Positions 21,327 through 61,652 of a stretch of 64,000 nt of DNA are shown one piece after another. The translations under genes were made by a program, and so were the position numbers. The notes beneath the pieces were generated by a model, which did no database searches, was not told the origin of the DNA, and saw nothing but the letters and a program-made list of their open reading frames with translations. Source of the DNA: Candidatus Nomurabacteria bacterium (lineage in GTDB: Bacteria > Patescibacteriota > Minisyncoccia > Phycocordibacterales > CAIJYI01); contig CALREZ010000001.1 of assembly GCA_943356445.1 (NCBI GenBank), positions 15,818-79,817 on the forward strand, read 5' to 3'. Each line of letters opens with the position of its first letter. The first letter of the stretch is position 1.

Positions 21327-21363
21327 AGAAATATAAAATAAAAATAAATAAGGGTGTCAAATT

Positions 21364-22170: not shown

Positions 22171-22171
22171 A

Positions 22172-23800: not shown

Positions 23801-23802
23801 TT

Positions 23803-25590: not shown

Positions 25591-25699
25591 GTTTTTTGAT
25601 TTGTTTATTATATACCTTTTTGAACCCCATGATAAGCCTTTTTCTTAAAGGTAAAGCATTGTAATTAAAATACGAAAAGTATGGAATGTCTGTTTGCGT

Positions 25700-25741
25700 A
25701 AATAAAAAAAGCGCTTCCTCTAAGAGAAAGCGCTTTGAGTA
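25700..25741 (-). terminator. rho-independent terminator (minus strand)
   Basis: On the minus strand, gcgctttctcttagaggaagcgc hairpin followed by T7, just after the stop of the 25752..27071 gene. Confidence 0.5.
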
Positions 25742-25751
25742 ATCTTTTGTA

Positions 25752-27071: not shown

Positions 27072-27072
27072 T

Positions 27073-28447: not shown

Positions 28448-28634
28448 TTTTTATTTACTCCTTCTTTTTGGTTTTAATCTGTTTTTTTGCAAATCAAATA
28501 ATACTATCAAAGTACGAAAATCCGTTTGAAGTATATCCCATATTTAATGAAAAGGTCAAGGGGTAATTTGGTTATATTTTAAAAAATATGATTGTCTTAT
28601 TGCTTAGTTTTAAAAAAAAGGGATAATATAAATC

Positions 28635-29237: not shown

Positions 29238-29247
29238 AAGTATATGA

Positions 29248-29277
29248 AAAAGCACCGACCATACGAATCGGTGCTTT
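29248..29277. terminator. bidirectional terminator between convergent genes
   Basis: aaagcaccga-ccatacgaa-tcggtgcttt hairpin flanked by A/T runs. Confidence 0.55.
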
Positions 29278-29281
29278 GTTA

Positions 29282-30337: not shown

Positions 30338-30364
30338 TTCGATTCCCCTTTGTTTCAAAAAACA

Positions 30365-31309: not shown

Positions 31310-31311
31310 TA

Positions 31312-32295: not shown

Positions 32296-32362
32296 GATAT
32301 TTTTATAGGTGTTAGGTTTTTCTGCCGTTTTACTTTATGATATTTTGAAATGTAATGCAAAT

Positions 32363-33430
32363 TTAGTCTTTTGTAAGGTTTAATACTTTTGTTATTGTTT
32401 CAGCGAAATTCTCAGGGAGAAACTTTTTGTATTTTTCGCTTTGAAGGAAGCGTTCTATCGCACAGAGATACTCGTTGTATCTTTCTTCCGTAACGGAAAA
32501 GAGATAATCGGCCAGTTCCTTTTCGTTTTTGAATTTTCTTCGGTCTATAAAAACATCCTCGTCAATATAATCGGCAACATTCGGCGCTCCAAGATATATT
32601 GGCACTGTTTTTGCCGCAAGGGCATCAAAAATCTTTTCAGTGATATAGCCGTTTTGTTCCGTGTTCTCGTAGCACAAAGCAAATTTGTATTGAGAAAGCG
32701 TATTAATCTTATTTGGAACCTCGCCTTGAAATTTTTTGTATTTTTTGACCAGCCAAGGAATTCTTTTTTGCCACTTTGTTATCGGTTGGTTCCAGTATAT
32801 GCCAAACAAATCGAAATGTTCGGGGTAATTGGCATCAAAATACGTTATGGTATTTCTCCTGGCCGTATATAGTTCCAGCGGAAGAGAAGATGTTTTATTT
32901 GTTATGATGTTTACTAAAAATTTTCTCTCAGAAAACGTTCGGTTATTTCGTATTGGTTTTGATGTTGCGGAAGGATGATGAACCTTAAAAAATTTTTTGT
33001 TGTCAATAATGTCGTCATCCCAAGTTAAAATACGGTTGAAATGTTTCCATAGAGCCGGGTCGTAGTTGCGCGGGCAAATGACTTTTCCTTCCATGATTAA
33101 AAAAACAAGTTTATCGGACATGGATAATTTTTCCGCTTCTGTGACAAGCTCTCTTTTCGGCCATATTTGCGGGAGTTTTAATCCGAGGATTTTTTTTAAT
33201 CGCCATTTCCACGATTTTTTGTGCTCGTTGGAAACGCTTTCGGCGTTAAGAAAAAGGATCCACCCGCACCCTTCCACGGAATTGCTGTCTGCGGTCGTAA
33301 ATTCATACCCGAGGAACTGAAGTTTATCGCGAAGCATGCGCCATGTTTCGGTGACGTTATTTATATCCGGGCCGAACATCCTGTTATTGCCGAGGGGGCG
33401 GCTTGGAACCTGAAGAAGTATTTTTTTCAT
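32363..33430 (-). CDS. alpha-1,3-fucosyltransferase (GT10)
   Basis: QYKFALCYENTEQNGYITEKIFDALAAKTVPIYLGAPN matches the GT10 FucT motif (YKFxLxFENS ... GYxTEK). Start set at MKKILL, overlapping the upstream stop by 4 bp. Confidence 0.7.
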   Translation of the reverse strand: MKKILLQVPSRPLGNNRMFGPDINNVTETWRMLRDKLQFLGYEFTTADSNSVEGCGWILFLNAESVSNEHKKSWKWRLKKILGLKLPQIWPKRELVTEAEKLSMSDKLVFLIMEGKVICPRNYDPALWKHFNRILTWDDDIIDNKKFFKVHHPSATSKPIRNNRTFSERKFLVNIITNKTSSLPLELYTARRNTITYFDANYPEHFDLFGIYWNQPITKWQKRIPWLVKKYKKFQGEVPNKINTLSQYKFALCYENTEQNGYITEKIFDALAAKTVPIYLGAPNVADYIDEDVFIDRRKFKNEKELADYLFSVTEERYNEYLCAIERFLQSEKYKKFLPENFAETITKVLNLTKD

Positions 33431-34299
33431 TGGTTTGTTTTGAACGCGCTTTTTATCTGACGGTAGATCTTTTCCCCGAAAAGATGTTTTAAAAACTTTT
33501 TGAAACGCAGTAACTCCCATCGTATTTTGTTTTGGGATTTGAACCAAAAATGTTTGATCCATGAAATGACAAAAAACAAGAAGGCTTGAACCTTACGAGG
33601 AAATTTTTTCAGAAGAGCGTTACGGAATAAGAGGAATTCAGAAAAGGGAAGCATCGTCTGCAATTTTTTAACAATCATAGGCATGGCGCTTTGCGAAAGA
33701 TGAGCTCCGTCTAAAAAGTACTGTTGTTTTGTATCATCGTTGGGGTTTAGGAGTTCATTCAGTATTGAAAGTACGCGGATGTTTCTATTTTTTGCTTCTT
33801 CCAGCAGCTTCTCGTTGAATTCTTTTTTTAATCGGTTTATTTCTCTGTCGTCGGCATCATCCGGATATTTTTCACGACCGGAAAATCTCGAAACGATGAG
33901 AGGCGAAGACCCTAAAAGAATTACCTCATATCCCATGTTTTTTATCTCGGTGATGGCGGAAAAATACCTTTCCAAAACGTCATCAATCATTTTTTCTATG
34001 CTTTCGTTTTGATGCGATACGTGCTTCATGAGATATATCATACGGCAATCCAGTTCGCCGAAAGACAAAAGAACAAGATCTTTTTTATCTATTTTTTCAA
34101 GTATTTTGAACAGGATTTCACGATCGTGAGACTTGGCGCTTTCTTTGTATAAATTGTATGCCAAAGATGGCCCAGTAAAATATGTCTTAAACGACGGGAT
34201 TTTATTTACTGTTTTTGCCGGCCATATCGGATAAAGAAAATTTGTTCCGGAGAAGACGTGGACGTGGCTATCGCCGACGCAGTGTATCGTTCTAACCAT
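33427..34299 (-). CDS. SGNH/GDSL-hydrolase family protein
   Basis: 290 aa. Block I CVGDSHV, block III GSSPL, block V DGAHLS (DxxH). Possible glycan O-acyl esterase or transferase. Confidence 0.5.
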   Translation of the reverse strand: MVRTIHCVGDSHVHVFSGTNFLYPIWPAKTVNKIPSFKTYFTGPSLAYNLYKESAKSHDREILFKILEKIDKKDLVLLSFGELDCRMIYLMKHVSHQNESIEKMIDDVLERYFSAITEIKNMGYEVILLGSSPLIVSRFSGREKYPDDADDREINRLKKEFNEKLLEEAKNRNIRVLSILNELLNPNDDTKQQYFLDGAHLSQSAMPMIVKKLQTMLPFSEFLLFRNALLKKFPRKVQAFLFFVISWIKHFWFKSQNKIRWELLRFKKFLKHLFGEKIYRQIKSAFKTNQ

Positions 34300-34315
34300 T
34301 TTTAGAATTAAGATA

Positions 34316-35599
34316 TTATTCGCTTGAAAGAGATTCGATTTTCCAATCGCAATTTGTAAGCACGGCGCAGTGAGCTAAACCGTATTTTCCGTAAGGTGAC
34401 ATTGGCGTTCTTCCGTTATCCGCAATAGTGAAACTCAACACGTCGGGACAATGATCTATGTTTTTTGAACCTCGTACATGCGCCGCGACAAGAAGCGTAT
34501 AGATGCTCGGCATAAGAAAATTTCCCCTAACCCCGGAAACCACTGAGTATTTTCCCGTTGGCAGATGTTCAAACTCACCTTTATTTTTTTCGGAAAGACT
34601 TGTGAAGATCACATTCATTCCCTCGCTGTTTTTGAGTCCGAAACTTATTTCTGCGTTGTTTGTCTCTTTTTGTACGGAAAATTCAGCGCAAATTTTGAAA
34701 TTCTTTGATACGTCTATTATGTCAGTCGCCACGCCGTTTTCATCCGCTATCCAAGCTTTTGTGAAAGTTACATCTTTGTTGAGATCCGGTTTTAATTCAA
34801 CCCCTTGCGTGGTCATTTCTTCCAGGTATTGTTTTATGATTTCGTTGGTATCACCGGCTGCTTTGATTTCTCCTTTCTGCAAAAGAATTGTTTTGGTGCA
34901 CAAGCTTTGAATGGCGGCGAGATTATGGCTGACAAAAAGAATGGTGCGCCCGTCTTGTTTAGTTACCTCATCCATTTTTCCCAGGCATTTTTTTTGAAAT
35001 TCCGCGTCTCCAACCGCAAGCACTTCATCGATAATAAGGATATCGGGCTCCATGTGGGCTGCGACAGAAAAGGCGAGACGGACATACATTCCGCTGGAAT
35101 AGTATTTTACCGGCGTATCCAAAAACTGAGCAATTCCCGCAAATTCAACGATGCGATCAAACTTCTCCGCCACTTCCTTTCTCTCCATCCCCAGAATGGC
35201 GCCGTTTAAGAAAATGTTTTCTCTCCCGGTAAGTTCCGGGTGGAAACCTGTACCTACCTCAAGAAGACTGCCGACTTTTCCTTTGATCTTCACCTCTCCC
35301 GTTGTCGGCGGGGTAATCTGCGAGAGTATTTTAAGCAATGTTGATTTCCCGGAACCGTTCGGCCCGATGATCCCAACTATTTCTCCCTTTTTGATATCAA
35401 TGTTTACATTCTTCAGTGCCCAGAATTCTTCTTTGACATCAATGCCGGCAAGCTGCTTTGCTTTGAATTTAAGAAAGGCAAAAGGAGCCCGGAAGACGTT
35501 TGCAATAACATCTCTGAGCGCTATATATCCGCCGCGGTGATGATTGATATTATACCGTTTACCGAGGCCTTTTATCTCTATGATGGTTGGTTGTTCCAT
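34316..35599 (-). CDS. wzt: polysaccharide ABC exporter ATP-binding protein with C-terminal extension (Wzt-like)
   Basis: 427 aa. Walker A GIIGPNGSGKST, ABC signature YSSGMYVRLAFS, Walker B ILIIDE. About 170 extra C-terminal residues, as in Wzt carbohydrate-binding domains. Confidence 0.85.
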   Translation of the reverse strand: MEQPTIIEIKGLGKRYNINHHRGGYIALRDVIANVFRAPFAFLKFKAKQLAGIDVKEEFWALKNVNIDIKKGEIVGIIGPNGSGKSTLLKILSQITPPTTGEVKIKGKVGSLLEVGTGFHPELTGRENIFLNGAILGMERKEVAEKFDRIVEFAGIAQFLDTPVKYYSSGMYVRLAFSVAAHMEPDILIIDEVLAVGDAEFQKKCLGKMDEVTKQDGRTILFVSHNLAAIQSLCTKTILLQKGEIKAAGDTNEIIKQYLEEMTTQGVELKPDLNKDVTFTKAWIADENGVATDIIDVSKNFKICAEFSVQKETNNAEISFGLKNSEGMNVIFTSLSEKNKGEFEHLPTGKYSVVSGVRGNFLMPSIYTLLVAAHVRGSKNIDHCPDVLSFTIADNGRTPMSPYGKYGLAHCAVLTNCDWKIESLSSE

Positions 35600-51330: not shown

Positions 51331-51358
51331 TTGACACTGAAATGCTTTTGCGTATAAT
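51331..51358 (+). promoter_or_regulatory. sigma70-type consensus promoter upstream of the 16S rRNA gene
   Basis: TTGACA (51331..51336), 16-nt spacer, TATAAT (51353..51358), about 210 nt upstream of the 16S 5' end. Confidence 0.55.
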
Positions 51359-51566
51359 AGAGGTTACGCTCATTGAAAAAGCGCCTTTATTTTGAAAGGC
51401 CACATACAAGTACAAATGCAACACAAATCGCAATTGATAAAAGTATCAGTTGCGCGTGCTAATAGAATTTTGCAAGAATTCGTTAGACGTAATTACGAGA
51501 ACAAAAGACCAAATAGCACAGCGATGCAAATTGGATTTTCTTTTGTTTCACTCTTGTCTTTTTTTT

Positions 51567-53050
<1,484 letters not shown>

Positions 53051-53362
53051 TTCATTTTATTGCGATCATCTTGTTTTCTTCGGAAAACAAAGATTGATTC
53101 GAAATGGCGATTGCTCAACCTAGTTGAGTAAGGCAATGGTTTTCTTGCCTTTAAATAAAAACCCCTTCAGCTTCTTTTGGTTAAAGAAGCAAACCCATAA
53201 AGAAAGAGTGAAACAAAAGAAAGTTAAATTTGCTTTCTGACTCTCGTATTTTGTGAAGCATTGCAAAATTAACCCGCATGATCTGCGGTTTTTTTTGTGC
53301 ATATGCAAAAGGTATCTCCTCACGCTATTTAAAAAATGGCTTGACTGTGTATTTTTTTTGTC

Positions 53363-53579
53363 GCCGGACGGGGTCTCCGACCGCTACTCGGTCAGTACAC
53401 CTTTTGGACTTTTTGTTTCGCTCACCGCTCACAAAAATTCTCAAAAGGTCTTGCGGAATGGGTCCCTGCCCATTCCTCACCCGTCCCGTCATTTGTGTAA
53501 CCATACAAACTTCTGTTTTTATACCAAACTTTATTGGGTAATTCAAACAAACAGACGGGGTCAGAGACCCGCGTCTGGC
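53363..53579. repeat. GC-rich long-stem inverted-repeat element, copy A (MITE-like / structured-RNA-like)
   Basis: gccggacggggtctccgacc (53363..53382) pairs with ggtcagagacccgcgtctggc (53559..53579). The interior shares the TTGTGTaACcA ... CAAACTTTATtGGGTaATtCAAACA core with copy B. Confidence 0.55.
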
Positions 53580-53637
53580 AAAGATTTGCTTTTGGTAAAC
53601 AAAAACAGTTTTTTTACATAATATCAGGAGAAGGAAG

Positions 53638-54036
53638 ATGAAAAAAGAAGATGTAAAGAAAATTAAGAAAACATTGGGATTCGCTTTGTTTATCCTCGGA
53701 CTGCTTAACGGGAGTTTAGAGACATTGGTGTTTATGGATAATGCTCTCGGCGCGGTGATATTCGTCGCTGGTTTCGGCACCTTAGGTGTTTGCGTCGGTG
53801 ATTATCTGGGAGGTCTTTATATTCAAAACGAATTAAAAGCGAAAGATAACGTGTTAGGTTTTATCTCATTATCTTTGGGAATGATTGTTGGTATTGCTGC
53901 TTGTCATTATTTAGCGCTTGGCGCGGTAATCGCCCTTTTGGGGATAGGCGTGTCTGTAAAAATACTTACTGATGCTCCATTGAAAGTTTCATTATCGGTC
54001 GTGAAGAAAGATCTAAAAGAACTCAGCGAAGGATAA
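53638..54036 (+). CDS. small glycine-zipper membrane protein, hypothetical
   Basis: 132 aa with three hydrophobic segments rich in GxxxG. AGGAGAAGGAAG lies 1 nt upstream of the ATG. A terminator hairpin lies at 54061..54091. Confidence 0.5.
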   Translation: MKKEDVKKIKKTLGFALFILGLLNGSLETLVFMDNALGAVIFVAGFGTLGVCVGDYLGGLYIQNELKAKDNVLGFISLSLGMIVGIAACHYLALGAVIALLGIGVSVKILTDAPLKVSLSVVKKDLKELSEG

Positions 54037-54060
54037 AGGAAAAAGGCGTTCTTTTTTATG

Positions 54061-54091
54061 GGACGGGGCCACAACCCCGTCCTTTTTATTT
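54061..54091 (+). terminator. rho-independent terminator
   Basis: ggacgggg-ccacaa-ccccgtcc followed by TTTTTATTT. Confidence 0.6.
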
Positions 54092-54094
54092 GCG

Positions 54095-54123
54095 TTGACG
54101 CGTTTTTGCTAAAAACATATAAT
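54095..54123 (+). promoter_or_regulatory. sigma70-like promoter giving a predicted leaderless transcript
   Basis: TTGACG (54095..54100), 17-nt spacer, TATAAT (54118..54123). The ATG of the downstream CDS is at 54130, 7 nt after the -10 element. Confidence 0.5.
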
Positions 54124-54129
54124 AAAAGA

Positions 54130-54660
54130 ATGAAGAAACCTATTTCAAAAACAAGCAAATCTGACTCACAGAAAAAACTCGCACCGGAAGTTCGTGAGGC
54201 TCTTGATTCCTATCATTTGGAAATGCAAAAATATGTTGATACTTTACAAAAAAGGTCTGACGAGGATATAAAGCGATATATTGGTTCTTTGACAGAAGAG
54301 TATCAAGGAAGAACTTCCGCCGTCGCGGAACAATTTTCGGGGTTGAACGAAAAGATAGATACCATAAAAGAAACGCTTGATGAACACGGAAGAATACTCG
54401 AAATGCACACCGAGATGATCGGTACGCTTATGGAAGACGTTTCCGTTCTAAAAGAAGATGTTGCTGTCTTAAAAGATGACGTTTCCGTTCTAAAAGAAGA
54501 TGTTGCTGTCTTAAAAGATGACGTTTCCGTCTTAAAAGAAGATGTTGCTGTCTTAAAAGATGACGTTTCCGAAATCAAAGATGAACTCAAAAACAAAGCC
54601 GACAAAACCGAAGTTATCCATCTTTCTCGGAGAGTTTCTGTTCTTGAACGCAATGTTTAG
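54130..54660 (+). CDS. coiled-coil protein with 14-aa tandem repeats, hypothetical
   Basis: 176 aa, strongly heptad-like, with a DVSVLKEDVAVLKD x3 repeat block. Start set at MKKPISK because of the promoter and terminator context. Confidence 0.55.
   Translation: MKKPISKTSKSDSQKKLAPEVREALDSYHLEMQKYVDTLQKRSDEDIKRYIGSLTEEYQGRTSAVAEQFSGLNEKIDTIKETLDEHGRILEMHTEMIGTLMEDVSVLKEDVAVLKDDVSVLKEDVAVLKDDVSVLKEDVAVLKDDVSEIKDELKNKADKTEVIHLSRRVSVLERNV
54436..54572 (+). repeat. 42-nt perfect/near-perfect tandem repeat x3.3 inside the CDS
   Basis: gacgtttccgttctaaaagaagatgttgctgtcttaaaagat is repeated at 54436, 54478 and 54520 (the third copy has 1 indel-neutral change), plus a partial fourth copy. Confidence 0.85.
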
Positions 54661-54698
54661 ATAGTGTGTGTTCATATTGTCAAAAATTGTTAAAAAAT

Positions 54699-54725
54699 AA
54701 GCCCCGTTTGTTTACGGGGCTTTAG
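54699..54725 (+). terminator. rho-independent terminator
   Basis: aagccccgt-ttgttt-acggggctt hairpin followed by a T-rich tract, 40 nt after the stop. Confidence 0.55.
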
Positions 54726-54749
54726 TCTTTTGTTTGGATACTTCAGTTT

Positions 54750-54835
54750 TTAACGTGGGGATTATCCTTCCGCCACTTTATTCTTATTCTCTTTGAGTGC
54801 TCCTTTTATTAACGTGGGGAACACTCTTCCGCCAC
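54750..54835. repeat. two 27-nt direct repeats with 59-nt periodicity
   Basis: ttaacgtggggattatccttccgccac (54750..54776) and ttaacgtggggaacactcttccgccac (54809..54835). Confidence 0.6.
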
Positions 54836-54915
54836 ATCATTCTGGAATAAGAATAGCAGTTTCGGAAAAAATGTCAAGTCAAGTGATAACCGGGGAAATG
54901 AGTTTATAAAGTTTC

Positions 54916-55048
54916 CGCCGGACGCGGGTCTCCGACCCTGTCCGCAACGTTTGTGTGACAAGACGAACTTTCTTTTTTTAAACAAACTTTATGGTGTCAT
55001 CCAAACATTCCAACGCGGTCGGAGACCCGCGTCGGGCGACGACGACGG
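54916..55048. repeat. GC-rich long-stem inverted-repeat element, copy B
   Basis: gccggacgcgggtctccgacc (54916..54936) and ggtcggagacccgcgtcgggc (55028..55048) form a 21-bp stem with 1 mismatch around a 91-nt interior. The interior is homologous to copy A. Confidence 0.6.
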
Positions 55049-55245
55049 ACGACGGACGTCCGGCAAAAACGAGTGTGAGGAGATACTTTTTGTGCCGATC
55101 CCCGCATTCGCGAGGATGACGATTTGGGGGTATTTTAGTCCAAGGAAATGAGTTTTTGGATTCACAGATTTTTCTTTGACATTTTACATTAAATATGATA
55201 CTATAAAATAAGGTTTTGGAACTTTCAAAAAAGAAAGAGGGAAAT

Positions 55246-55467
55246 ATGCCGAGATACATATTGGAAGTTAATTACGAAGAACAGAAAGATCATCACGAGC
55301 GGTATACTTCATGTGAACGGTTGGAATTTGAACGCGATAGCGACAAATCCGCCTTAAGATACGCATTTAGTTCAGCAAGTATCAATGCGAGAGAAGAAGA
55401 CAAAAAGTTATTCAGAGTGGTTGAACCATATGGTTCAACCAAGAGAATCTATTCAGAAGAAGAATAA
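55246..55467 (+). CDS. small hypothetical protein
   Basis: 73 aa from MPRYILEV, with AGAGGGAAAT upstream. Followed by a hairpin plus T-run terminator at 55478..55507. Confidence 0.4.
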   Translation: MPRYILEVNYEEQKDHHERYTSCERLEFERDSDKSALRYAFSSASINAREEDKKLFRVVEPYGSTKRIYSEEE

Positions 55468-55477
55468 GAAATTTACA

Positions 55478-55507
55478 CCCGTCGGTTTATCCGGCGGGTT
55501 TTTTTGT
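55478..55507 (+). terminator. rho-independent terminator
   Basis: cccgtcgg-tttat-ccggcggg followed by T8. Confidence 0.55.
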
Positions 55508-55569
55508 TTTTGTTGTGTATGTTTGGTATAATAACTGAACAAAGATTAAACATTTATTATCTATTTTTT

Positions 55570-57354
55570 ATGAAAGAATCTTTTCCTCCAAAAATAAACG
55601 AAGAAAAAACAGAGGGAGAAAATAATTTCCAAGAGGCAAAAAACGGAGTGGAAGTTCCGAAAGGAGAAGAAAGGGAATATGCAAAATCCAAAGAGGAGAT
55701 GTGGGATATGGTTGGAAAGCTCAATGACGGAGACGGCTTCGTTTCTTATGATTTTACTCCCGAAATGATGGAGAAAAGAATGGATCTTAACGGCAGGGCC
55801 GTTGATCTCATCGGTAAATTTCAAAAAACCGGATATCAAAAAGGAGATTTTGAAAAAGCTCATCAACTCTACCATGAATTTTCTTCTTTTTATGAAGGGG
55901 TAAAAAGTCGCGGAAAAAAGCAGGTTGACGAACGAGCATACGAAGCGAGTCTCCAGAGACGATCGGAGATCGAGAATGCTTTGAAAAAACCGACATCAAA
56001 TGAACCCGAGCCTTCTGTTCGTCAGAGCGATACATCGGTTGAAGAAATAACAAAAGAACTGGAAAAATTCAAAGCTGAAGGCGGGCTCAATTTATATTAC
56101 ACGAGCAAAGAAGATCTTGTCAGCGATCTTATTTCTTCCCGTCATCTTGCCGAGAATCCGGAACAGGAAAAAATAATGACAAAGTTTTTTGAAGCAAGGG
56201 TTTCTCTGCATCAGGAAAAACTTTGGTATAAAGATTTTCGTTCCCATCATCCTTTTTTCGCGCCGTTCATGAAAGTGGTCAATATGCTGGCGCTTTCTCC
56301 TGAAATTTTGTCGGGTGCTTATAATGGTCGTAAATTGCGACAGATGGCTAAAGAGGGAAAGCTTACAGAACAACAAGTTGAAAAGATAAATACGGCGCTT
56401 CAAGAAATAAAAAATGAGGAGGTGGAAAAGCCTTCTTTGGAAAAACAAGGCGGAGGATCTAAAAAACAGTCTGAAAATATCGCTCAAGAGGAAACATCTG
56501 AAATGGAAAAAGGAGGTCTCGAATCATTCTCTTCCAGTATCGGGGAAAGCGATCCGAAGGATCCGAATCGCATAAACGAAGATCAGGTTTTGGAAAGAAA
56601 AGATAAGGGTGTGTATGCCGTATTTGACGGTGTTGGAGGGCAAGAACAGGGAGACGTTGCTTCATATGTTGCAAAGCATGCCTTATCAAAAGAATGCGAT
56701 ACTATGCCTGAAAACATGTCGATTCAGGAAACGCAAGATTTTGTCCAGAGAGTCATAAAAAAGATCAGTGATAATATTTTTGAAAATAATCGGCTTGCCA
56801 CAGAGCGCGGAAAATTAAGTAATATGGCCAGCACTATGACCCTTGCTGTTGTCTGGAATGGTAATAATGGAGAGAAAAAACTTATTGTCGGAAATATCGG
56901 AGATAGTCGAGCTTATCTTCAAAAACAAGGGAAACTTGAACAACTTACCATGGATGATAACTATCTTCGGAAACATGCGGGAGATGATACTCGCGCTCGG
57001 AGTCTTCAGCTCATCCTTAACAACATCAACAGCGAAGAGGAGATCAATCTGCTTGAGGGGGTTAATGAAAAAGATAAATTTTTGTTACTGGAAAGTTTTA
57101 GAAATAGAAATATCATTATGAAGTGTCTTGGTCTAGAAAATCAAAATCCGGAAGTAACTGTCCATGATTTTCCGGCCGGCTCTGAGCTATTGCTTGCGAC
57201 GGATGGTTTGACGGATAACCTTACTGATAAAGAAATAGAGCAAAATTTTGGAAAGAACCTTGCGGTTGCGGCGCTTAAAAGAAGCAATGAGGGGCATGGC
57301 AGAGCAAAACAGGATGATATTAGTTTTGTTACCGTGAAAAACTCATCCAGATAA
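55570..57354 (+). CDS. PP2C-family Ser/Thr phosphatase with long N-terminal extension
   Basis: C-terminal ~250 aa contain VYAVFDGVGGQEQGDVAS ... LAVVW ... GNIGDSRAYL ... LATDGLTDNL (PP2C motifs). The N-terminal ~330 aa are charged, coiled-coil-like and unassigned. Confidence 0.7.
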   Translation: MKESFPPKINEEKTEGENNFQEAKNGVEVPKGEEREYAKSKEEMWDMVGKLNDGDGFVSYDFTPEMMEKRMDLNGRAVDLIGKFQKTGYQKGDFEKAHQLYHEFSSFYEGVKSRGKKQVDERAYEASLQRRSEIENALKKPTSNEPEPSVRQSDTSVEEITKELEKFKAEGGLNLYYTSKEDLVSDLISSRHLAENPEQEKIMTKFFEARVSLHQEKLWYKDFRSHHPFFAPFMKVVNMLALSPEILSGAYNGRKLRQMAKEGKLTEQQVEKINTALQEIKNEEVEKPSLEKQGGGSKKQSENIAQEETSEMEKGGLESFSSSIGESDPKDPNRINEDQVLERKDKGVYAVFDGVGGQEQGDVASYVAKHALSKECDTMPENMSIQETQDFVQRVIKKISDNIFENNRLATERGKLSNMASTMTLAVVWNGNNGEKKLIVGNIGDSRAYLQKQGKLEQLTMDDNYLRKHAGDDTRARSLQLILNNINSEEEINLLEGVNEKDKFLLLESFRNRNIIMKCLGLENQNPEVTVHDFPAGSELLLATDGLTDNLTDKEIEQNFGKNLAVAALKRSNEGHGRAKQDDISFVTVKNSSR

Positions 57355-57377
57355 AGAAATTCTTTTTTTAATTTTCA

Positions 57378-58265
57378 ATGGAAAACATACCAAAAGAGAA
57401 CCTCTCTCCTAAAACAGATGTTTCTTTTCCTTTTGCAAACTTGGAAAGATCTAAAGACGTGTTCGGTCCGAGTGCCGTTTTTTATGATGTTCCCGGTCAT
57501 CCGGAATTGATTGTAAGGAAGTGTTTTGTTTCAAAGGAAGTGATGGAGAACATAAATGAGGAACTGGAGGAAAAGGATGAATATAAAGATTTTACGGAGG
57601 AAGAATTGGAAGAGATCAGAAATAAGAAAAAAGTGGAACAGCTTATTAAGAATGCCGGGGATTTTCAAAAAACAGGAAAACGTTACGGACTGCGAATGGC
57701 GGAAACGAGCTATGTGGTCGGTACGGATCCTGATTCCGGAAAACCTGAAATTTTTGGGGTAACGGACCGCATCATTGGAGAAAATCTGAAGACTATGCGC
57801 GGTATTTCAAAAAAAATGGAGGGTGAAATTGATGAGGTATTCAGCGGTATTATTTTTCATTTGAGAGATTCATATTTGGGGAATGGTGTTTTTTGGAGAG
57901 ACTTTAGAGACGATCAGATTTTATACGGAGCCAAATACAGGGAAACAGAACAGCATCCCTATCTTATTGATGTTGATCCTTTGATGGTTTCGTGGGTTGA
58001 TCCTAAAATATGCAAAACGGAAAACGAGAGAGAAGACCTTTTCTGGACAAAAATCGGCCTTATTCTTGCGATTGAGGTGGAGAGGGTTGAAGAGAAAATT
58101 CAGTCAGGACGTCTTGTAAAAACAAGAGAAGCTTTGAACGATGTTATAAAAACCGTACCGGAACCGAAGAGCGTAAGGGCGAAAAATTGGTATGATAGCT
58201 TGGTTGATGATTTGCGGGGTAACTCCATAAATGATTTTCCCAATATCGGTTTCAGATTTTCATAA
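57378..58265 (+). CDS. hypothetical protein
   Basis: 295-aa ORF immediately downstream of the PP2C gene. Good coding look; no family recognised. Confidence 0.45.
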   Translation: MENIPKENLSPKTDVSFPFANLERSKDVFGPSAVFYDVPGHPELIVRKCFVSKEVMENINEELEEKDEYKDFTEEELEEIRNKKKVEQLIKNAGDFQKTGKRYGLRMAETSYVVGTDPDSGKPEIFGVTDRIIGENLKTMRGISKKMEGEIDEVFSGIIFHLRDSYLGNGVFWRDFRDDQILYGAKYRETEQHPYLIDVDPLMVSWVDPKICKTENEREDLFWTKIGLILAIEVERVEEKIQSGRLVKTREALNDVIKTVPEPKSVRAKNWYDSLVDDLRGNSINDFPNIGFRFS

Positions 58266-58346
58266 AGAAGGTCTTTGATGAGGAAATTTTTAAAGTCGAG
58301 TAAATGATTGCAGTTTTTCATTTTTTTTGGTATATATAGAGTACTT

Positions 58347-58418
58347 GCGCGCATAGTTCAGGGGTAGAACGCTGTCCTGATAAGACAGAGGTCCTTGGTT
58401 CGATTCCAAGTGCGCGCA
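58347..58418 (+). tRNA. tRNA-Ile (anticodon GAT)
   Basis: Cloverleaf read by hand. Acceptor GCGCGCA/TGCGCGC, D arm GTTC ... GAAC, anticodon stem CTGTC/GACAG with loop CTGATAA, T arm CTTGG-TTCGATT-CCAAG. CCA is not encoded. Confidence 0.8.
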
Positions 58419-58468
58419 CAAACGACGGTAGCGTTAAAGTCTCTTTTATTTTGTCACTCTCTCGTAAT

Positions 58469-58540
58469 TATAAGACAGAGGTCCTTGGTTCCTTGCCCTG
58501 CCGTAGCGAAGCGGAGGAGGGGATTCCAAGTGTGCGCACA
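58469..58540 (+). pseudogene. duplicated 3' half of tRNA-Ile interrupted by a 30-nt insertion (tRNA fragment)
   Basis: taagacagaggtccttggttc (58471..58491) and gattccaagtgtgcgcaca (58522..58540) match the anticodon-loop-to-3'-end of the upstream tRNA. A 30-nt insertion sits inside the T loop. No matching 5' acceptor strand upstream. Confidence 0.6.
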
Positions 58541-58650
58541 GGGAATGAAAACCGGCATGAGGTACATCATGCCGGTTTTCTTGACTTCTTGTGCGTTTCA
58601 GGTAGCCTGTAGGGAGAATACAAAACAATATAACTAAAGGGGTTATTATC

Positions 58651-59016
58651 GTGTCAAACTATGTTATTTCAAATGAGCAAAAAGACCTCTACCATGAGCT
58701 CAAAGATCGTTTAGTGTATTTGATCCTAAAAAGCAAAAGAGAAATTCTTGATATCGTATCAAACCGAATCTATCTCTGTGAAGACGGAGAATGGACGATT
58801 ATTTCTGAAAAACATGAAGTAACCGAGGGGACGCTTTCTCTTCATGTTCTTCTTACCGAATATGCCTGTCATTTGATGGGCGGAAGGAATTTGGGAATAA
58901 TGGTTATTAAAGACCAGGAAACATTCAACCGACTTTTTAACGGTTTTATTGAACTGATGAAAGTTGACGAAGAATTTTTGACGGGCGATCCGTACGATAC
59001 GGATCTTTTGGTTTGA
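58651..59016 (+). CDS. hypothetical protein
   Basis: 121-aa ORF with a GTG start, preceded by AAAGGGG. Confidence 0.35.
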   Translation: MSNYVISNEQKDLYHELKDRLVYLILKSKREILDIVSNRIYLCEDGEWTIISEKHEVTEGTLSLHVLLTEYACHLMGGRNLGIMVIKDQETFNRLFNGFIELMKVDEEFLTGDPYDTDLLV

Positions 59017-59044
59017 TAAAGCTTAAAATAAAAAGGAGATAAAA

Positions 59045-59476
59045 ATGACTCAAACTTGCGCATGCCCCGGTTTTTCCGCTGCGACGCATATATTGCATAT
59101 GGCGGCGCGCGCCGGACTATCTAAAGTGATCGTTGCCGCGCTTGAAGAAGGCGCTGATATCAAGGCTCGCGAATATGACGAACGCTGCCCCGATACCGGT
59201 TATGATGCTTTGGCTCTCGCTACTTACTTTGGACACCTTAATGCGGTAAGAGTTCTCACCGCTTTCGGCGCGGATCATGATGTTCTGGTTGAAAAAGGAA
59301 CGACGCTTTTGATTGTTGCCGCCCTGCAAGGGCACACGAAAATTGGCGAGTATCTTATCTCTCTCGGATTGCCGATTGATGTCGTTGACGGCGATGGCGA
59401 CTCCGCCCTGTCGGTGGCAAAAAGAGGCAATCATAAAGAATTTATAGCGATGCTTGAAAAGCATATGAAGCGATGA
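59045..59476 (+). CDS. ankyrin-repeat protein
   Basis: 143 aa with three or four ANK-like repeats (GYDALALATYFGHLNAVRVLTAFGADHD; GTTLLIVAALQGHTKIGEYLISLG). Strong SD AAAAGGAGAT upstream. Terminator at 59483..59515. Confidence 0.7.
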   Translation: MTQTCACPGFSAATHILHMAARAGLSKVIVAALEEGADIKAREYDERCPDTGYDALALATYFGHLNAVRVLTAFGADHDVLVEKGTTLLIVAALQGHTKIGEYLISLGLPIDVVDGDGDSALSVAKRGNHKEFIAMLEKHMKR

Positions 59477-59482
59477 TTTTAA

Positions 59483-59515
59483 AACCGTTCCGGTATTTAC
59501 GGAACGGTTTTTTCT
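59483..59515 (+). terminator. rho-independent terminator
   Basis: aaccgttccg-gtattta-cggaacggtt followed by TTTTTC. Confidence 0.6.
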
Positions 59516-59587
59516 TGCCAAAACTCTGTCTTTGTGGTAGAACGAATGGGACGTTGGACATTGAAATCAGCCTAAAGGAGGGCGAAA

Positions 59588-60859
59588 ATGGAAGGAAAAA
59601 GAAAGAAATATAATAGAGAAGCGGAACAACTTCTCAGAAAACTTTCGACTCATGAAAATGAATTAACTAATAGTGAACATTTTGAACTGAATGAAATATT
59701 CGGTGCACATTGTTATTCACCTTTGGATGAACTCGTTATCGAAAAAACTCGCGGAGTATGGGTGTGGGATATTGAAGGAAAAAGATACATGGACGGACTT
59801 TCCGCTTATTCCGCGCATAATGCCGGGCATTGCCATAGGACAATCGTCAAAGCAATGCGCGAACAAATTGGAAAATGCGATACGACCTCGGGCGCTTTCT
59901 TGCATAAAGAATTAGGGCCGTTCAAAGCTGAACTTGCCGCATTTTGCGGGAAGGATATGGTTTGGCCGCAAAATGGCGGAGTTGAAGCATGGGAATTTGC
60001 GGTTAAAGTTTCTCGTCTTTGGGGGTATCGTGAAGCAAAGGGAGTTCCCGAAGAAAAAGCGGAGATAATCGTTATGAGAGGGAACTTTCATGGACGAACT
60101 CTCGCTGCAACCAGCGCTTCTTCCGAACCTGCTTACAAAAAAGGTTTTGGACCGTTTCTTCCCGGTTTTGTCTGGGTTGATTATGACGACACCGAAGCTT
60201 TGCAAAACGCCATTACCCCAAATACCGTCGCTGTTATTTTTGAACCAATTCAAGGCGAAGCAGGAATTAAAGTTCCTCGTTTCGGGTATTTGAAAGCGGT
60301 AAGAGAATTGTGCGACAAACATAATATCTTGATGGTTGCTGACGAAATACAAGTCGGTCTTGGACGCACCGGATATAAATTCGCTTGCGACTATGAAAGT
60401 GTTGTTCCGGATCTTTACATTATCGGTAAGGCTTTGGGCGGCGGATCTGTCCCGGTTTCAGCTGTTGCCGGAAATAAAGACATTCTCGGGCTTATCGAGC
60501 CTGGCACGCACGGCTCGACCTTTGCGGGAAATCCGCTGTCTTGCCGTGCGGCTCGTGCATATCTTCGCGTATACGAAGAAGAAGATCTGGCTGAAAAATC
60601 GCGAGTAATGGGAAATTATTTCATGGATCGTCTCTCTACCATATTTTCGTCGCATATCAAGGAAATCCGGGGAAGAGGCTTGCTTATCGGTGTTGAACTC
60701 AATAGTCCAGCCCGTCCTTTCTGTGAAGAATTGAAAAGACTGGGGCTTTTATGTAAGGAAACACATGGAAATATCATTCGTATTGCTCCGCCTCTGGTCA
60801 TTACCAAAAAACAAATAGACTGGGCGGTAAAACGCATCAAAAAGGTTCTTGAAGCCTAG
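59588..60859 (+). CDS. rocD: ornithine aminotransferase (class III PLP-dependent aminotransferase)
   Basis: 423 aa. VWVWDIEGKRYMDGLSAYSAHNAGHCH and DEIQVGLGRTG ... IGKALGGG (PLP lysine region) match the ornithine--oxo-acid transaminase family. SD AAAGGAGGG upstream. Confidence 0.8.
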   Translation: MEGKRKKYNREAEQLLRKLSTHENELTNSEHFELNEIFGAHCYSPLDELVIEKTRGVWVWDIEGKRYMDGLSAYSAHNAGHCHRTIVKAMREQIGKCDTTSGAFLHKELGPFKAELAAFCGKDMVWPQNGGVEAWEFAVKVSRLWGYREAKGVPEEKAEIIVMRGNFHGRTLAATSASSEPAYKKGFGPFLPGFVWVDYDDTEALQNAITPNTVAVIFEPIQGEAGIKVPRFGYLKAVRELCDKHNILMVADEIQVGLGRTGYKFACDYESVVPDLYIIGKALGGGSVPVSAVAGNKDILGLIEPGTHGSTFAGNPLSCRAARAYLRVYEEEDLAEKSRVMGNYFMDRLSTIFSSHIKEIRGRGLLIGVELNSPARPFCEELKRLGLLCKETHGNIIRIAPPLVITKKQIDWAVKRIKKVLEA

Positions 60860-60868
60860 GTGAAACAC

Positions 60869-60903
60869 TATCGCCCCGACGAGTATCGGGGCGATTTTTT
60901 TAT
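60869..60903 (+). terminator. rho-independent terminator
   Basis: atcgccccgacgagtatcggggcgat hairpin followed by T9. Confidence 0.65.
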
Positions 60904-60958
60904 TGACTTTTTATTTATTTCATGATACAATAATAACCAGATTTTGACAACATGAAAG

Positions 60959-61603
60959 GTGAAAGCCATGAGCACGAAACAAGAAAAGGTGCCGGTGGTC
61001 ACCTATGCACTACTCGAGAAAATTGAGACTCGTAAAACTCAAAAGGAAAAACAACGCAAGCTGGAATCTTCGTACCGCGCTGGCGCAAAAAAACAAGAAG
61101 CTCTTTTACTGAAACAAAGGGCGGAACGCGAGCGATTGCGCGCAGTAAAAGAAGAACTTCGCGAGGAAATCAGACGCACTCACGTCATACCTTCTTTTAT
61201 CTTGGAAAGAAAACGCGCAAAAAAAGAAGAGCAAAAGAAAGCGAAAGAATTTGCTTTTGTTGAACGGCACCGTCAAAAAAAACTTGCGGAAGATATTCTT
61301 CAAGAACAAAAAGAACAAGCTTTTCGCTCAAAACAATTCAGAAAAGAATTGCGTTTGGCCAAAACGGTTCCTCTTGAGATTAAAAGACTGCCACTTTTGT
61401 TTGAAGAAAGCGAAATCGGGAAGGCTCAATTGCTTGAGTGTGAAAAAACAATAGTTCCTCTTTTGGTAAAACTTGCCAAGATCGTCGGCTTTGATGTTGA
61501 ACTTGACGAATTCGGAGAAAAAACCGCTTTAATCTTATGGAAACCTTATCCTTATTGGCGATACGCTTTCTCGGATAAAAAGAGCGGGGCGTTGAATGGA
61601 TAG
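60959..61603 (+). CDS. hypothetical K/E/R-rich coiled-coil protein
   Basis: 214 aa, highly charged and helical-looking; no family recognised. Confidence 0.45.
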   Translation: MKAMSTKQEKVPVVTYALLEKIETRKTQKEKQRKLESSYRAGAKKQEALLLKQRAERERLRAVKEELREEIRRTHVIPSFILERKRAKKEEQKKAKEFAFVERHRQKKLAEDILQEQKEQAFRSKQFRKELRLAKTVPLEIKRLPLLFEESEIGKAQLLECEKTIVPLLVKLAKIVGFDVELDEFGEKTALILWKPYPYWRYAFSDKKSGALNG

Positions 61604-61618
61604 TTCTCCAAAAACATA

Positions 61619-61652
61619 ATCGGCACAGGGTCTAGACCCTGTGCCGATTTTT
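61619..61652. terminator. bidirectional rho-independent terminator between convergent genes
   Basis: cggcacagggtctagaccctgtgccg perfect hairpin, flanked by A-run and T-run. Confidence 0.65.

What the first reader, a model, noticed from the sequence alone, without database searches (positions are those of the whole stretch)
53051..58540. Non-canonical rRNA locus: 16S followed by about 5.3 kb of protein-coding DNA before a tRNA-Ile(GAT), and no 23S/5S in the following 5.5 kb
In most bacteria tRNA-Ile(GAT), often with tRNA-Ala, sits in the short 16S-23S spacer. Here 16S ends at about 53050 and the tRNA-Ile lies at 58347..58418. Between them are six ORFs (a membrane protein, a coiled-coil repeat protein, a small protein, PP2C and a hypothetical) and two MITE-like hairpin elements. 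No tRNA-Ala or 23S is found through position 64000.

Two explanations fit. Either the rRNA genes are unlinked, as in some reduced genomes, or a block of DNA has been inserted into what was once the internal transcribed spacer, carrying its own promoter and terminators. The sudden appearance of strong SD sites and GC-rich repeats in this block fits the insertion scenario.
Basis: seen in the sequence. Interest (0 to 1): 0.55.

Follow-up and report, generated by a model that had tools for sequence, protein, structure and literature searches.

The report
Stand-alone 16S gene with stretched tRNA-Ile spacer
This is the normal arrangement for this group of ultra-small bacteria (Paceibacteria/Parcubacteria): the 16S rRNA gene is its own transcription unit, far from any 23S gene. 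The tRNA-Ile that once followed it closely now lies 5.3 kb away because lineage-specific genes have accumulated between them.

Summary
A complete 16S lies at 51560..53056 and tRNA-Ile(GAT) at 58347..58419, with five credible protein genes between them. There is no 23S, 5S or tRNA-Ala in the window. Contigs of the same species show none from 10 kb upstream of the window to 10 kb beyond it. Three independent assemblies reproduce every junction.

The organism is a Patescibacterium of the Paceibacteria, with a 16S tail that lacks the anti-SD sequence. Of 101 related genomes, one has a 23S near its 16S, so unlinked rRNA genes are clade-wide, as already published (Brewer et al.).

The 16S has a perfect promoter, a 19-bp leader/trailer processing stem and a structurally conserved terminator 220 nt past its 3' end. 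The tRNA-Ile has its own conserved promoter.

In the sister sub-clade, 35 of 41 genomes keep tRNA-Ile downstream of 16S (median 0.7 kb, maximum 4.1 kb). Two near relatives (16S 97% and 94% identical over partial sequence) have it about 1.27 and 1.0 kb downstream.

Relative to them the window carries extra cassettes, including a cleanly bounded 2.8-kb PP2C plus hypothetical-gene segment. Their orthologues sit at separate non-rRNA loci elsewhere, and the block's composition is native.

Verdict: a known kind of arrangement with local gene gain and rearrangement, not a disrupted 16S-23S spacer.

The parts
51331..51358 (+). rrs promoter, TTGACA-16 nt-TATAAT (12/12 match)
   Evidence: About 200 nt upstream of the mature 16S 5' end.
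51537..51555 (+). 5' leader strand of the pre-16S processing stem
   Evidence: 19 nt perfectly complementary to 53203-53221.
51560..53056 (+). Complete 16S rRNA gene. The 3' tail reads GGAACAAUUUCAUU, with no CCUCC anti-SD.
   Evidence: 1383.5 bits, model 1-1533. Tail read. The same type of tail occurs in 101 Patescibacteria genomes. Loss of the motif is published.
53203..53221 (+). 3' trailer strand of the processing stem (GAGTGAAACAAAAGAAAG core)
   Evidence: The core is conserved in most of the aligned relatives (L119, L126, L127, L121, L118, L117, L124, L074), slightly diverged in L128 and not conserved in L116.
53274..53296 (+). Intrinsic terminator of the rrs unit (CCGCATGATCTGCGG followed by T8)
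   Evidence: A hairpin sits at the same alignment position in most relatives with different stem sequences (CCCCGAGCACGGGG, CCCCTAATCAAGGGG, CCGCACAATGAGGCGG), i.e. compensatory change.
53306..53579 (.). E1: GC-rich palindromic (MITE/REP-like) element. Absent at this position in L119, L126 and L127.
   Evidence: (z = -5.7).
53638..54036 (+). 132-aa membrane protein gene with the SD-like motif AGGAGAAGGAAG. L127 has a different small ORF (about 80 aa, read by eye) at this position.
   Evidence: Terminator at 54060-54083.
54095..54660 (+). Promoter (TTGACG-17-TATAAT, 54095-54123) plus a leaderless coiled-coil gene (54130-54660). The gene carries a 42-nt variable tandem repeat at 54412-54584.
   Evidence: Repeat length differs by 84 nt between assemblies. 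Homologues (47-62% aa identity) lie downstream of 16S in L116, L117, L124, L125 and L127.
54699..54843 (.). Bidirectional terminator hairpin (54699-54722) and two 57-nt direct repeats (54728-54843)
   Evidence: Conserved in L119 and L127.
54916..55092 (.). E2: GC-rich long hairpin (arms 54916-54937 and 55017-55038), inverted relative to E1. A related double hairpin occupies the same position in L126.
   Evidence: (z = -5.4).
55176..55499 (+). Promoter (55176-55204), 73-aa gene (55246-55467) and terminator (55477-55499). This unit is shared with L126 (66% aa identity).
55506..58301 (+). 2.8-kb segment absent from L126. It holds its own TATAAT (55527-55532), PP2C phosphatase (55570-57354) and the 295-aa orphan-family protein (57378-58265).
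   Evidence: Junction: L126 1422/1425 corresponds to window 55505/58302. PP2C domain. Orthologues lie at other loci.
58308..58336 (+). tRNA-Ile promoter: TTGCAG-17 nt (ending TGG)-TATATA, about 10 nt before the tRNA
   Evidence: Sequence read. Conserved in L126 and L128. Not listed by the consensus scan, because the -35 hexamer matches only 3 of 6.
58347..58419 (+). tRNA-Ile(GAT)
58470..58540 (+). Duplicate of the tRNA-Ile 3' half (anticodon loop to acceptor end), interrupted by 30 nt in the T-loop
   Evidence: (repeats D8, D14).
58547..58580 (+). 17-bp palindromic hairpin. Inferred to be the end of the tRNA transcription unit.
   Evidence: I7. Function is an inference.

Best explanation
The window comes from a Patescibacterium of the Paceibacteria (Parcubacteria) lineage, in which the 16S rRNA gene is unlinked from 23S-5S as an ancestral, clade-wide trait.

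Here rrs is a self-contained monocistronic unit. It has a consensus promoter (51331-51358), a leader about 200 nt long, a 19-bp leader/trailer processing stem, the 16S itself, and an intrinsic terminator about 220 nt past the 3' end.

tRNA-Ile(GAT) is the surviving piece of the ancestral spacer. It now has its own promoter and is a separate unit.

The interval between the two is ordinary chromosome that turns over quickly. In the nearest relatives it is about 1 kb. In this lineage it has grown to 5.3 kb by gaining small genes, each with its own promoter and terminator. The gains include a 2.8-kb PP2C + orphan-gene segment that most likely moved in from elsewhere in the genome.

Shown directly: the anatomy, the absence of 23S nearby, the distribution across the clade, the presence/absence differences between relatives, and the reproducibility of the assembly.

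Inferred: the transcript boundaries, the direction of change (gain here rather than loss in relatives), and the mechanism of relocation.
For: Observation and reach:
- Only 16S and tRNA-Ile are found in the 64 kb.
- No rRNA lies within 10 kb either side of the window in same-species ENA contigs.

Taxonomy and clade pattern:
- A scan with the helix-45 + tail pattern returned 101 loci, nearly all Patescibacteria/Paceibacteria.
- Rfam was run on 37 of these loci and blastn with the L076 23S on all 101. Only L076 has a 23S, and it serves as a positive control (16S, 1.9 kb, tRNA-Ile, tRNA-Ala, 0.9 kb, 23S).
- 85 loci have at least 1.5 kb downstream and 49 have at least 5 kb.
- 35 of 41 loci of the GAACAATTCAA/TCCA sub-clade have tRNA-Ile(GAT) downstream. 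Over all 43 loci with a same-strand downstream tRNA-Ile, the distance is 163-4084 nt, median 706.

Literature:
- Unlinked rRNA genes in Patescibacteria (bioRxiv 10.1101/705046).
- Anti-SD loss in a Parcubacteria subgroup (PMC9297842).

Transcription-unit anatomy:
- Promoters and terminators.
- Processing stem.
- Terminator conserved through compensatory stem changes.
- tRNA promoter conserved in L126 and L128.

Fine-scale comparison:
- L126 (16S 96.9% identical): tRNA-Ile at +1.27 kb. Only E2-like hairpins and the 73-aa gene are shared.
- L128 (about 94%): tRNA promoter at about +0.96 kb.
- L119 (97.9%): lacks E1, the membrane gene and the coiled-coil gene.
- L127: a different small ORF replaces E1 + the membrane gene.

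Origin of the cargo:
- The PP2C orthologue (59% identity) sits between Sua5 and AlaRS.
- A hyp295 orthologue (57%) is in the same sample on a separate contig; another (51%) lies beside GrpE.
- Composition of the block is native.

Assembly.
Against: - The 23S-5S genes of this genome were not located, so 'unlinked' rests on absence over about 84 kb plus the clade pattern.
- The two closest species representatives in GTDB (L074 at 88.6% and L077 at 85.8% 16S identity) show no tRNA-Ile within 6-7 kb. The 16S-tRNA-Ile linkage is therefore not universal in the family.
- The near relatives (L119, L126, L128) are short metagenome contigs with only partial 16S, so their relatedness is estimated from 320-890 nt.
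- The polarity (gain versus loss) rests on parsimony over two short-interval relatives.
- No target-site duplications or recombinase genes identify a mechanism.
- Promoters and terminators are sequence predictions only.
Confidence: 0.85

Rival explanations
1. A foreign block was recently acquired by horizontal transfer (a mobile island or MITE-flanked composite element) and inserted as one piece into the former spacer between 16S and tRNA-Ile.
For: - E1 and E2 are inverted copies of a palindromic element that flank the membrane and coiled-coil genes.
- A duplicated tRNA-Ile 3' half lies just downstream of the tRNA, as at integrase att sites.
- Some genes in the block carry SD-like motifs that are rare elsewhere in the window.
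- No gene of the block is found in the 101 GTDB rrs loci.
Against: - The block is a mosaic, not one unit. Relatives carry different subsets: the coiled-coil gene alone, the 73-aa gene alone, or neither.
- E2's position is conserved in L126.
- The repeat motif occurs only at this locus in about 84 kb, and in none of the related loci apart from one marginal 4-mismatch match.
- GC and tetranucleotide composition are unremarkable.
- There is no integrase or transposase.
- The tRNA fragment lies only 50 nt from the tRNA, on the side away from the block.
- PP2C and hyp295 have orthologues (57-59% identity) at separate ordinary loci in a related lineage.
Confidence: 0.08
2. This 16S is an extra orphan copy (or a decaying one), and the genome also has a canonical 16S-tRNA-23S-5S operon elsewhere.
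For: - The whole genome was not available.
- The 16S lacks the anti-SD sequence, which could be read as decay.
Against: - The gene is full length with a high Rfam score.
- It has a perfect promoter, a processing stem and a conserved terminator.
- The anti-SD-less tail is shared by 101 genomes and is published as a lineage trait.
- Only one of those 101 loci has a 23S near its 16S. Canonical operons carrying the same tail would also have matched the pattern.
- Most genes in the window have no SD motif, consistent with an anti-SD-less ribosome.
Confidence: 0.04
3. Assembly artefact: a chimeric join at the conserved 16S, or at repeats, placed unrelated DNA between 16S and tRNA-Ile.
For: - All data come from short-read metagenomes, and 16S genes are classic chimera points.
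- Logan contigs break at the coiled-coil repeat and inside the tRNA.
Against: - Two ENA MEGAHIT contigs (49 and 116 kb) and the Logan contigs agree at 99.9-100% identity across every junction.
- Leader and trailer of the 16S are complementary over 19 bp.
- The trailer and terminator are the same as in independent relatives.
- The tRNA promoter, tRNA and fragment arrangement recurs in L126.
Confidence: 0.03

Closest known systems
Unlinked rRNA genes (Brewer et al., 'Unlinked rRNA genes are widespread among Bacteria and Archaea', bioRxiv 10.1101/705046), e.g. Patescibacteria, Deinococcus-Thermus, Dehalococcoidia, Rickettsiales
   Same: - The 16S is not followed by a 23S, far beyond the 1.5-kb criterion.
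- The trait is conserved across a coherent clade.
- Patescibacteria are explicitly named as such a clade.
   Different: - A tRNA-Ile(GAT) is still found downstream of 16S on the same strand in most of one sub-clade, at variable distance and as its own transcription unit.
- It is often followed by tRNA-Leu(CAG) instead of tRNA-Ala.
- I did not find this detail in the papers searched.
Canonical bacterial rrn operon (16S-tRNA-Ile(GAT)-tRNA-Ala(UGC)-23S-5S, one transcript, RNase III processing stems)
   Same: - Order and strand of 16S, then tRNA-Ile(GAT).
- Leader/trailer processing stem around 16S.
- A strong consensus promoter.
   Different: - A terminator lies 220 nt after 16S.
- There are 5.3 kb with five independently transcribed protein genes before the tRNA.
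- The tRNA has its own promoter.
- There is no tRNA-Ala, 23S or 5S within at least 15 kb downstream.
Anti-SD-less 16S rRNA of a Parcubacteria subgroup (Tsurumaki et al. 2022, RNA 28:1041, PMC9297842)
   Same: - The tail after helix 45 lacks CCUCC.
- The same type of tail is found in 101 Paceibacteria genomes.
- Most genes here have A/T-rich upstream regions without SD, or are leaderless.
   Different: Nothing essential. This is a further member. A minority of genes nevertheless carry AGGAG-like motifs, and their role is unknown.
tRNA-gene integration sites of genomic islands (a duplicated tRNA 3' segment as the att repeat)
   Same: A direct repeat of the tRNA-Ile 3' half, starting in the anticodon loop, lies downstream of the intact gene.
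   Different: - Only 50 nt separate the gene and the repeat.
- There is no integrase and no island between them.
- The extra genes lie upstream of the tRNA promoter, not between the repeats.
MITE / REP-like palindromic repeats
   Same: Short non-coding GC-rich elements with terminal inverted repeats of about 22 nt that fold into long hairpins.
   Different: - Only two copies, both at this locus.
- No target-site duplication was seen.
- One copy is positionally conserved in a relative.
- The arms resemble the local GGACGGGG...CCCCGTCC terminator hairpins.

Membership tests
Unlinked rRNA genes (sensu Brewer et al.) | A complete 16S gene with no 23S within 1.5 kb downstream on the same strand | tested here: met
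   16S at 51560-53056. No LSU hit in the window, nor in the 10 kb beyond either end.
Unlinked rRNA genes (sensu Brewer et al.) | The trait is phylogenetically conserved in the surrounding clade | tested here: met
   100 of 101 related rrs loci lack a 23S in the DNA held; 85 have at least 1.5 kb downstream.
Unlinked rRNA genes (sensu Brewer et al.) | A 23S(-5S) gene exists elsewhere in the same genome | not testable with these tools
   Only about 84 kb of this genome could be reached. Proteins outside the window cannot be looked up.
Canonical rrn operon | 16S, spacer tRNAs, 23S and 5S are contiguous and co-transcribed | tested here: not met
   There is a terminator at 53274-53296, five promoter/terminator-bounded genes, a separate tRNA promoter, and no 23S or 5S. 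Transcription itself was not measured.
Anti-SD-less Parcubacteria 16S | Absence of CCUCC in the 3' tail after helix 45 | tested here: met
   The tail reads GGAACAAUUUCAUU. No displaced copy of the anti-SD tail was found within 2 mismatches: the 3 window matches are no more than chance and lie far from the 16S 3' end. The lineage trait is published.
MITE | Terminal inverted repeats on a short non-coding element | tested here: met
   E2 arms are 22 nt and 95% complementary. E1 arms were also found.
MITE | Many dispersed copies in the genome | tested here: not met
   The TIR motif occurs only at 53.3-55.1 kb in the window plus extensions (about 84 kb). In the other loci fetched there is only one marginal 4-mismatch match. 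The whole genome was not available.
MITE | Target-site duplication at the ends | tested here: inconclusive
   No flanking direct repeat is evident, but the element boundaries are uncertain.
tRNA-targeted integrative island | Direct repeat of the tRNA 3' portion | tested here: met
   58380-58420 is repeated at 58470-58491 plus 58522-58540.
tRNA-targeted integrative island | An integrase gene and cargo between the repeats | tested here: not met
   Only 50 nt lie between the repeats. No integrase domain was found in the neighbouring genes.

The most novel reading that the evidence does not exclude
In the anti-SD-less Paceibacteria, the stretch between the stand-alone 16S terminator and the tRNA-Ile promoter may be a preferred landing pad. 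Small self-contained gene cassettes would be gained, swapped and lost there on species-level timescales. GC-rich palindromes (E1/E2 and the terminator hairpins) and recombination at the tRNA-Ile gene might promote this. Supporting the tRNA part, relative L126 shows a complete tRNA-Ile, flanked by 38-nt inverted repeats, nested in the anticodon loop of another tRNA-Ile copy, and the window retains the 3' remnant of such an arrangement.
Probability: 0.2. Interest if true: 0.45.

Novelty: new member of a known kind. Interest (0 to 1): 0.25.

Why it matters
Practically, 16S-ITS-23S long-amplicon and operon-based profiling will miss these organisms. Annotation pipelines should also not expect a spacer tRNA pair or an anti-SD sequence here.

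Biologically, the locus shows how an rRNA operon comes apart. The 16S keeps its own promoter, processing stem and terminator. The former spacer tRNA acquires its own promoter. The gap between them then behaves like any fast-evolving intergenic neighbourhood.

This refines a published phenomenon and does not overturn anything.

Tried and rejected
- Displaced 16S 3' end carrying the anti-SD: the window has only 3 matches within 2 mismatches, no more than expected by chance and none near the 16S.
- Viral-contig scan with the helix-45 sequence: 0 hits.
- tblastn of 14 window proteins against the 101 GTDB rrs loci: no hit below E = 1e-3, so there is no synteny at family-to-order distance.
- Composition test for foreign origin: for the 53-59 kb windows, GC is 0.397 and tetranucleotide distance is 13.2-13.9. 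Both lie inside the window-wide range (GC 0.359-0.460; distance 8.7-22.9). The test is not informative.
- Function of hyp295, the PP2C N-terminal half, the 73-aa, 121-aa and 211-aa proteins: no Pfam or PDB sequence match better than E of about 0.04. My guess that hyp295 is kinase-like got no support.
- Rfam at permissive E-value over 53.0-59.7 kb and over L119, L126, L127 and L128: no riboswitch, group I intron or other family explains E1, E2 or the tRNA fragments.
- Whole-length leader/trailer duplex energy against mononucleotide shuffles: only z of about -2.7, with one shuffle folding as well. The argument therefore rests on the 19-bp perfect core and its conservation.
- One DNA alignment used the wrong strand for L126 and was discarded.
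- Locating the 23S: not possible, because genome contigs allows only one scan and proteins outside the window cannot be looked up.

Full report
**1.

Rfam finds exactly two RNA genes in the 64-kb window. One is a full-length bacterial 16S at 51560..53056 (+) (1383.5 bits, model positions 1-1533). The other is a tRNA at 58347..58418, which ARAGORN identifies as tRNA-Ile(GAT) at 58347..58419. No 23S, 5S or tRNA-Ala is present. A blastn search with a patescibacterial 23S also finds nothing in the window.

The 5,290 nt between the two RNA genes hold five credible genes:
- a 132-aa membrane protein, 53638-54036
- a coiled-coil repeat protein, 54130-54660
- a 73-aa protein, 55246-55467
- a PP2C phosphatase, 55570-57354 (Pfam PP2C_2, E = 5e-13)
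- a 295-aa hypothetical protein, 57378-58265

Their fold z-scores are -5.7 and -5.4.

**2. It is not an assembly artefact, and no 23S lies just outside the window**

Exact-protein look-ups retrieved independent assemblies of the same species.
- ENA contig ERZ27280321:k141_163409 (49.4 kb) is 99.85-99.96% identical to window 43638-64000. The only length difference is 84 nt in the coiled-coil tandem repeat.
- Logan contigs cover 52906-54465, 54542-58392 and 58364-61647 at 100% identity.
- The ENA contig continues 10 kb past the window end. The genes there are FMN_bind, a CobW-like protein, amino-acid kinase, OTCase, a response regulator, TP_methylase, DUF4015, MurB and SecA, with no gap large enough for a 23S. 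Rfam finds only the tRNA-Ile.
- A second ENA contig (116 kb) extends 10 kb upstream of the window and is densely protein-coding.

So there is no 23S called from about -10 kb to about +74 kb in window coordinates. That is at least 61 kb upstream and 21 kb downstream of the 16S.

The 16S leader (51537-51555) is perfectly complementary over 19 nt to the trailer (53203-53221). This ties the two flanks of the 16S to one transcription unit and argues against a chimeric join at the 16S.

**3. Who it is**

After helix 45 the 16S ends GGAACAAUUUCAUU, where other bacteria have GGAUCACCUCCUUA. The anti-Shine-Dalgarno CCUCC is therefore absent.

A scan of one genome per GTDB species, using the helix-45 frame plus this tail, returned 101 loci. 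Nearly all are Patescibacteria of the Paceibacteria/Parcubacteria: Adler-, Nomura-, Kaiser-, Wolfe-, Colwell- and Liptonbacteria.

Most genes in the window have A/T-rich upstream regions without SD, or a TATAAT directly before the start codon.

Loss of the anti-SD motif in a Parcubacteria subgroup is published (Tsurumaki et al. 2022, PMC9297842).

**4. Unlinked rRNA genes are the rule in this clade**

Rfam on 37 of the related loci found a 23S in only one, L076. L076 reads 16S, 1.9 kb, tRNA-Ile, tRNA-Ala, 0.9 kb, 23S, and serves as a positive control. blastn with that 23S against all 101 loci found no other 23S, although 85 loci hold at least 1.5 kb and 49 hold at least 5 kb downstream of the 16S.

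Brewer et al. (bioRxiv 10.1101/705046) already list Patescibacteria among the clades with exclusively or mostly unlinked rRNA genes.

**5. The tRNA-Ile is a relic of the old spacer**

In the sub-clade whose 16S tail reads GAACAATTCAA or GAACAATTCCA (79-83% 16S identity to the window), 35 of 41 loci with enough sequence have tRNA-Ile(GAT) downstream of the 16S. Across all 43 loci with a same-strand downstream tRNA-Ile, the distance is 163-4084 nt (median 706). In 23 loci a tRNA-Leu(CAG) follows. tRNA-Ala appears in only four distant loci. A second sub-clade (tail ...TAAA) has no tRNA-Ile in 0 of 30 loci.

The genes that fill the longer intervals are unrelated from genome to genome. By their sequences they look like a membrane protein, a large secreted protein, a nuclease-like protein, a phosphoesterase, decarboxylase and dehydrogenase-like enzymes and a methyltransferase. 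This is my reading of the translations; Pfam was not run on them.

The window's 5,290 nt is the longest 16S-to-tRNA-Ile distance seen.

The closest GTDB representatives are L074 (88.6% 16S identity) and L077 (85.8%). Ordinary genes follow their 16S: a pilin-like protein, a cation efflux protein and a SurA-like protein in L074; an FKBP, MraW, a PBP and a Mur ligase in L077. Neither has a tRNA-Ile within 6-7 kb.

**6. Anatomy: separate transcription units**

These are sequence predictions, some backed by conservation.
- The 16S has a perfect TTGACA-16-TATAAT promoter at 51331-51358.
- It has the leader/trailer stem described above.
- It has a hairpin plus T8 terminator at 53274-53296.
- An alignment of the trailers of ten relatives shows the processing-stem strand conserved in most of them. 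A terminator hairpin sits at the same position in most, with different stem sequences (CCGC...GCGG, CCCC...GGGG), which is compensatory change.
- Each protein gene in the interval has its own promoter-like site and terminator hairpin. The coiled-coil gene appears leaderless, with TATAAT ending 6 nt before its ATG.
- The tRNA-Ile is preceded by TTGCAG-17 nt-TATATA with a TG extension (58308-58336). This sequence is conserved in relatives L126 and L128.

**7. Fine-scale comparison shows gain of cassettes**

A metagenome scan with the window-type tail gave 13 contigs. Findings:
- L126 (16S 96.9% identical over 320 nt) shares the trailer and terminator, an E2-like double hairpin, the 73-aa gene (66% aa identity), and the tRNA-Ile promoter and gene. 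Its tRNA lies only 1.27 kb from the 16S.
- L126 positions 1422/1425 correspond to window 55505/58302. The window therefore has a cleanly bounded extra 2.8 kb holding PP2C and the 295-aa gene.
- L128 (about 94% identical) has the tRNA promoter about 0.96 kb downstream of its 16S.
- L119 (97.9%) passes from the 16S terminator almost directly to window 54691. It lacks E1, the membrane gene and the coiled-coil gene.
- L127 has a different small ORF (about 80 aa, read by eye) in place of E1 plus the membrane gene, followed by a coiled-coil homologue (62% aa identity).
- Four L074-like contigs also carry coiled-coil homologues downstream of their 16S.

The interval is thus a mosaic. Two independent short-interval relatives make gain in the window's lineage the parsimonious reading. 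This is an inference.

**8. Where the extra genes came from**

The best PP2C orthologue (P0002, 59% identity, a Parcubacteria MAG, GCA_026395595.1) lies between Sua5 and AlaRS, with no rRNA or tRNA nearby.

The 295-aa protein has only two homologues among 5.8 billion proteins. One (57% identity) is in the same sample as P0002 but on a separate contig. The other (51%) lies beside GrpE.

GC content (0.397) and tetranucleotide distance of the block lie within the window's normal range.

PP2C and the 295-aa gene have no SD-like motif. The E1/E2 arm motif occurs nowhere else in about 84 kb of this genome, and in the other loci fetched only as one marginal 4-mismatch match.

Together this favours relocation of native genes over import of a foreign mobile block. 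I found no recombinase, transposase or target-site duplication, so the mechanism remains open.

**9. Comparison with known systems, and verdict**

The locus meets the definition of unlinked rRNA genes, and its clade is already reported as such. It fails the tests for a canonical operon. It only partly meets those for a MITE (inverted repeats yes, multi-copy no) and for a tRNA-targeted island (att-like repeat yes, integrase and cargo no).

What may be new is modest:
- the 16S-to-tRNA-Ile(GAT) linkage persists, usually followed by tRNA-Leu(CAG), in a large Paceibacteria sub-clade;
- the 16S has a self-contained promoter/stem/terminator architecture;
- cassettes in the interval turn over at species level.

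I score it as a new member of a known kind, with low-to-moderate interest.

Noticed in passing
window 53041-53056 (16S 3' tail) and gene starts throughout the window: The 16S lacks the anti-SD CCUCC (tail GGAACAAUUUCAUU). Most genes have A/T-rich upstream regions without SD, or are leaderless. A minority (53638, 55246, 59045, 59588, 27716 on the minus strand) still carry AGGAG-like motifs that cannot pair canonically. The lineage trait is published (PMC9297842).
   Followed up: partly
window 58470-58540; L126 (coordinates on the strand where the 16S reads forward) 1479-1821: The tRNA-Ile 3' half is duplicated 50 nt downstream of the gene, with a 30-nt insert in the T-loop. In relative L126 a complete tRNA-Ile, flanked by inverted repeats of about 38 nt, sits between a 5' half and a 3' half of another tRNA-Ile. 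Both halves break at the same anticodon-loop position. Rfam detects no group I intron. A deletion between the two 5' halves would give the arrangement seen in the window.
   Followed up: partly
window 54412-54584: A 42-nt (14-aa, EDVSVLKEDVAVLKDD-type) tandem repeat lies inside the coiled-coil gene. The copy number differs by 84 nt between two assemblies of the same species, and Logan contigs break there.
   Followed up: partly
L003-L103 (GTDB rrs loci): In many Adler-, Kaiser- and Nomurabacteria-type genomes the 16S is followed by tRNA-Ile(GAT) and then tRNA-Leu(CAG) (23 loci) rather than tRNA-Ala. The ...GAACAATTAAA tail sub-clade has no tRNA-Ile (0 of 30), and several of its loci have tRNA-Leu(GAG) downstream instead.
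   Followed up: partly
L017 868-949; L008 7847-7925: Group II intron domain hits (RF01998) lie next to or within the 3' region of the 16S in two related genomes. In L017 the helix-45 pattern lies about 900 nt beyond the Rfam 16S end, which suggests an insertion near the 16S 3' end.
   Followed up: no
window 54728-54843: Two 57-nt direct repeats (TTTTTAACGTGGGGATTATCCTTCCGCCAC...) are conserved in relatives L119 and L127, downstream of a bidirectional terminator. Their function is unknown.
   Followed up: no
window 57378-58265: The 295-aa protein belongs to a tiny orphan family: 3 members among 5.8 billion clustered proteins, with no Pfam or PDB sequence match.
   Followed up: partly
window 9479-9901: A 140-aa protein of the '23S rRNA intervening sequence protein'/bAvd four-helix-bundle family (PF05635, with a weak PF22296 hit) lies beside glycosyltransferase and asparagine synthase genes. 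It is unrelated to the position of the 23S.
   Followed up: no
window 21000-35000: A stretch of lower GC (0.36-0.38) with the largest tetranucleotide deviation in the protein-coding part of the window. It is more deviant than the block under study.
   Followed up: no
L125 (1252 nt): The 16S 3' end plus trailer occurs at both ends of the contig, flanking a coiled-coil homologue. This is probably an assembly loop between strain variants.
   Followed up: no
L114 1644-3988 (just upstream of the window start): A type IV secretion coupling protein (TraG/VirD4-like) and a PemK toxin gene lie 6-8 kb upstream of the window start.
   Followed up: no
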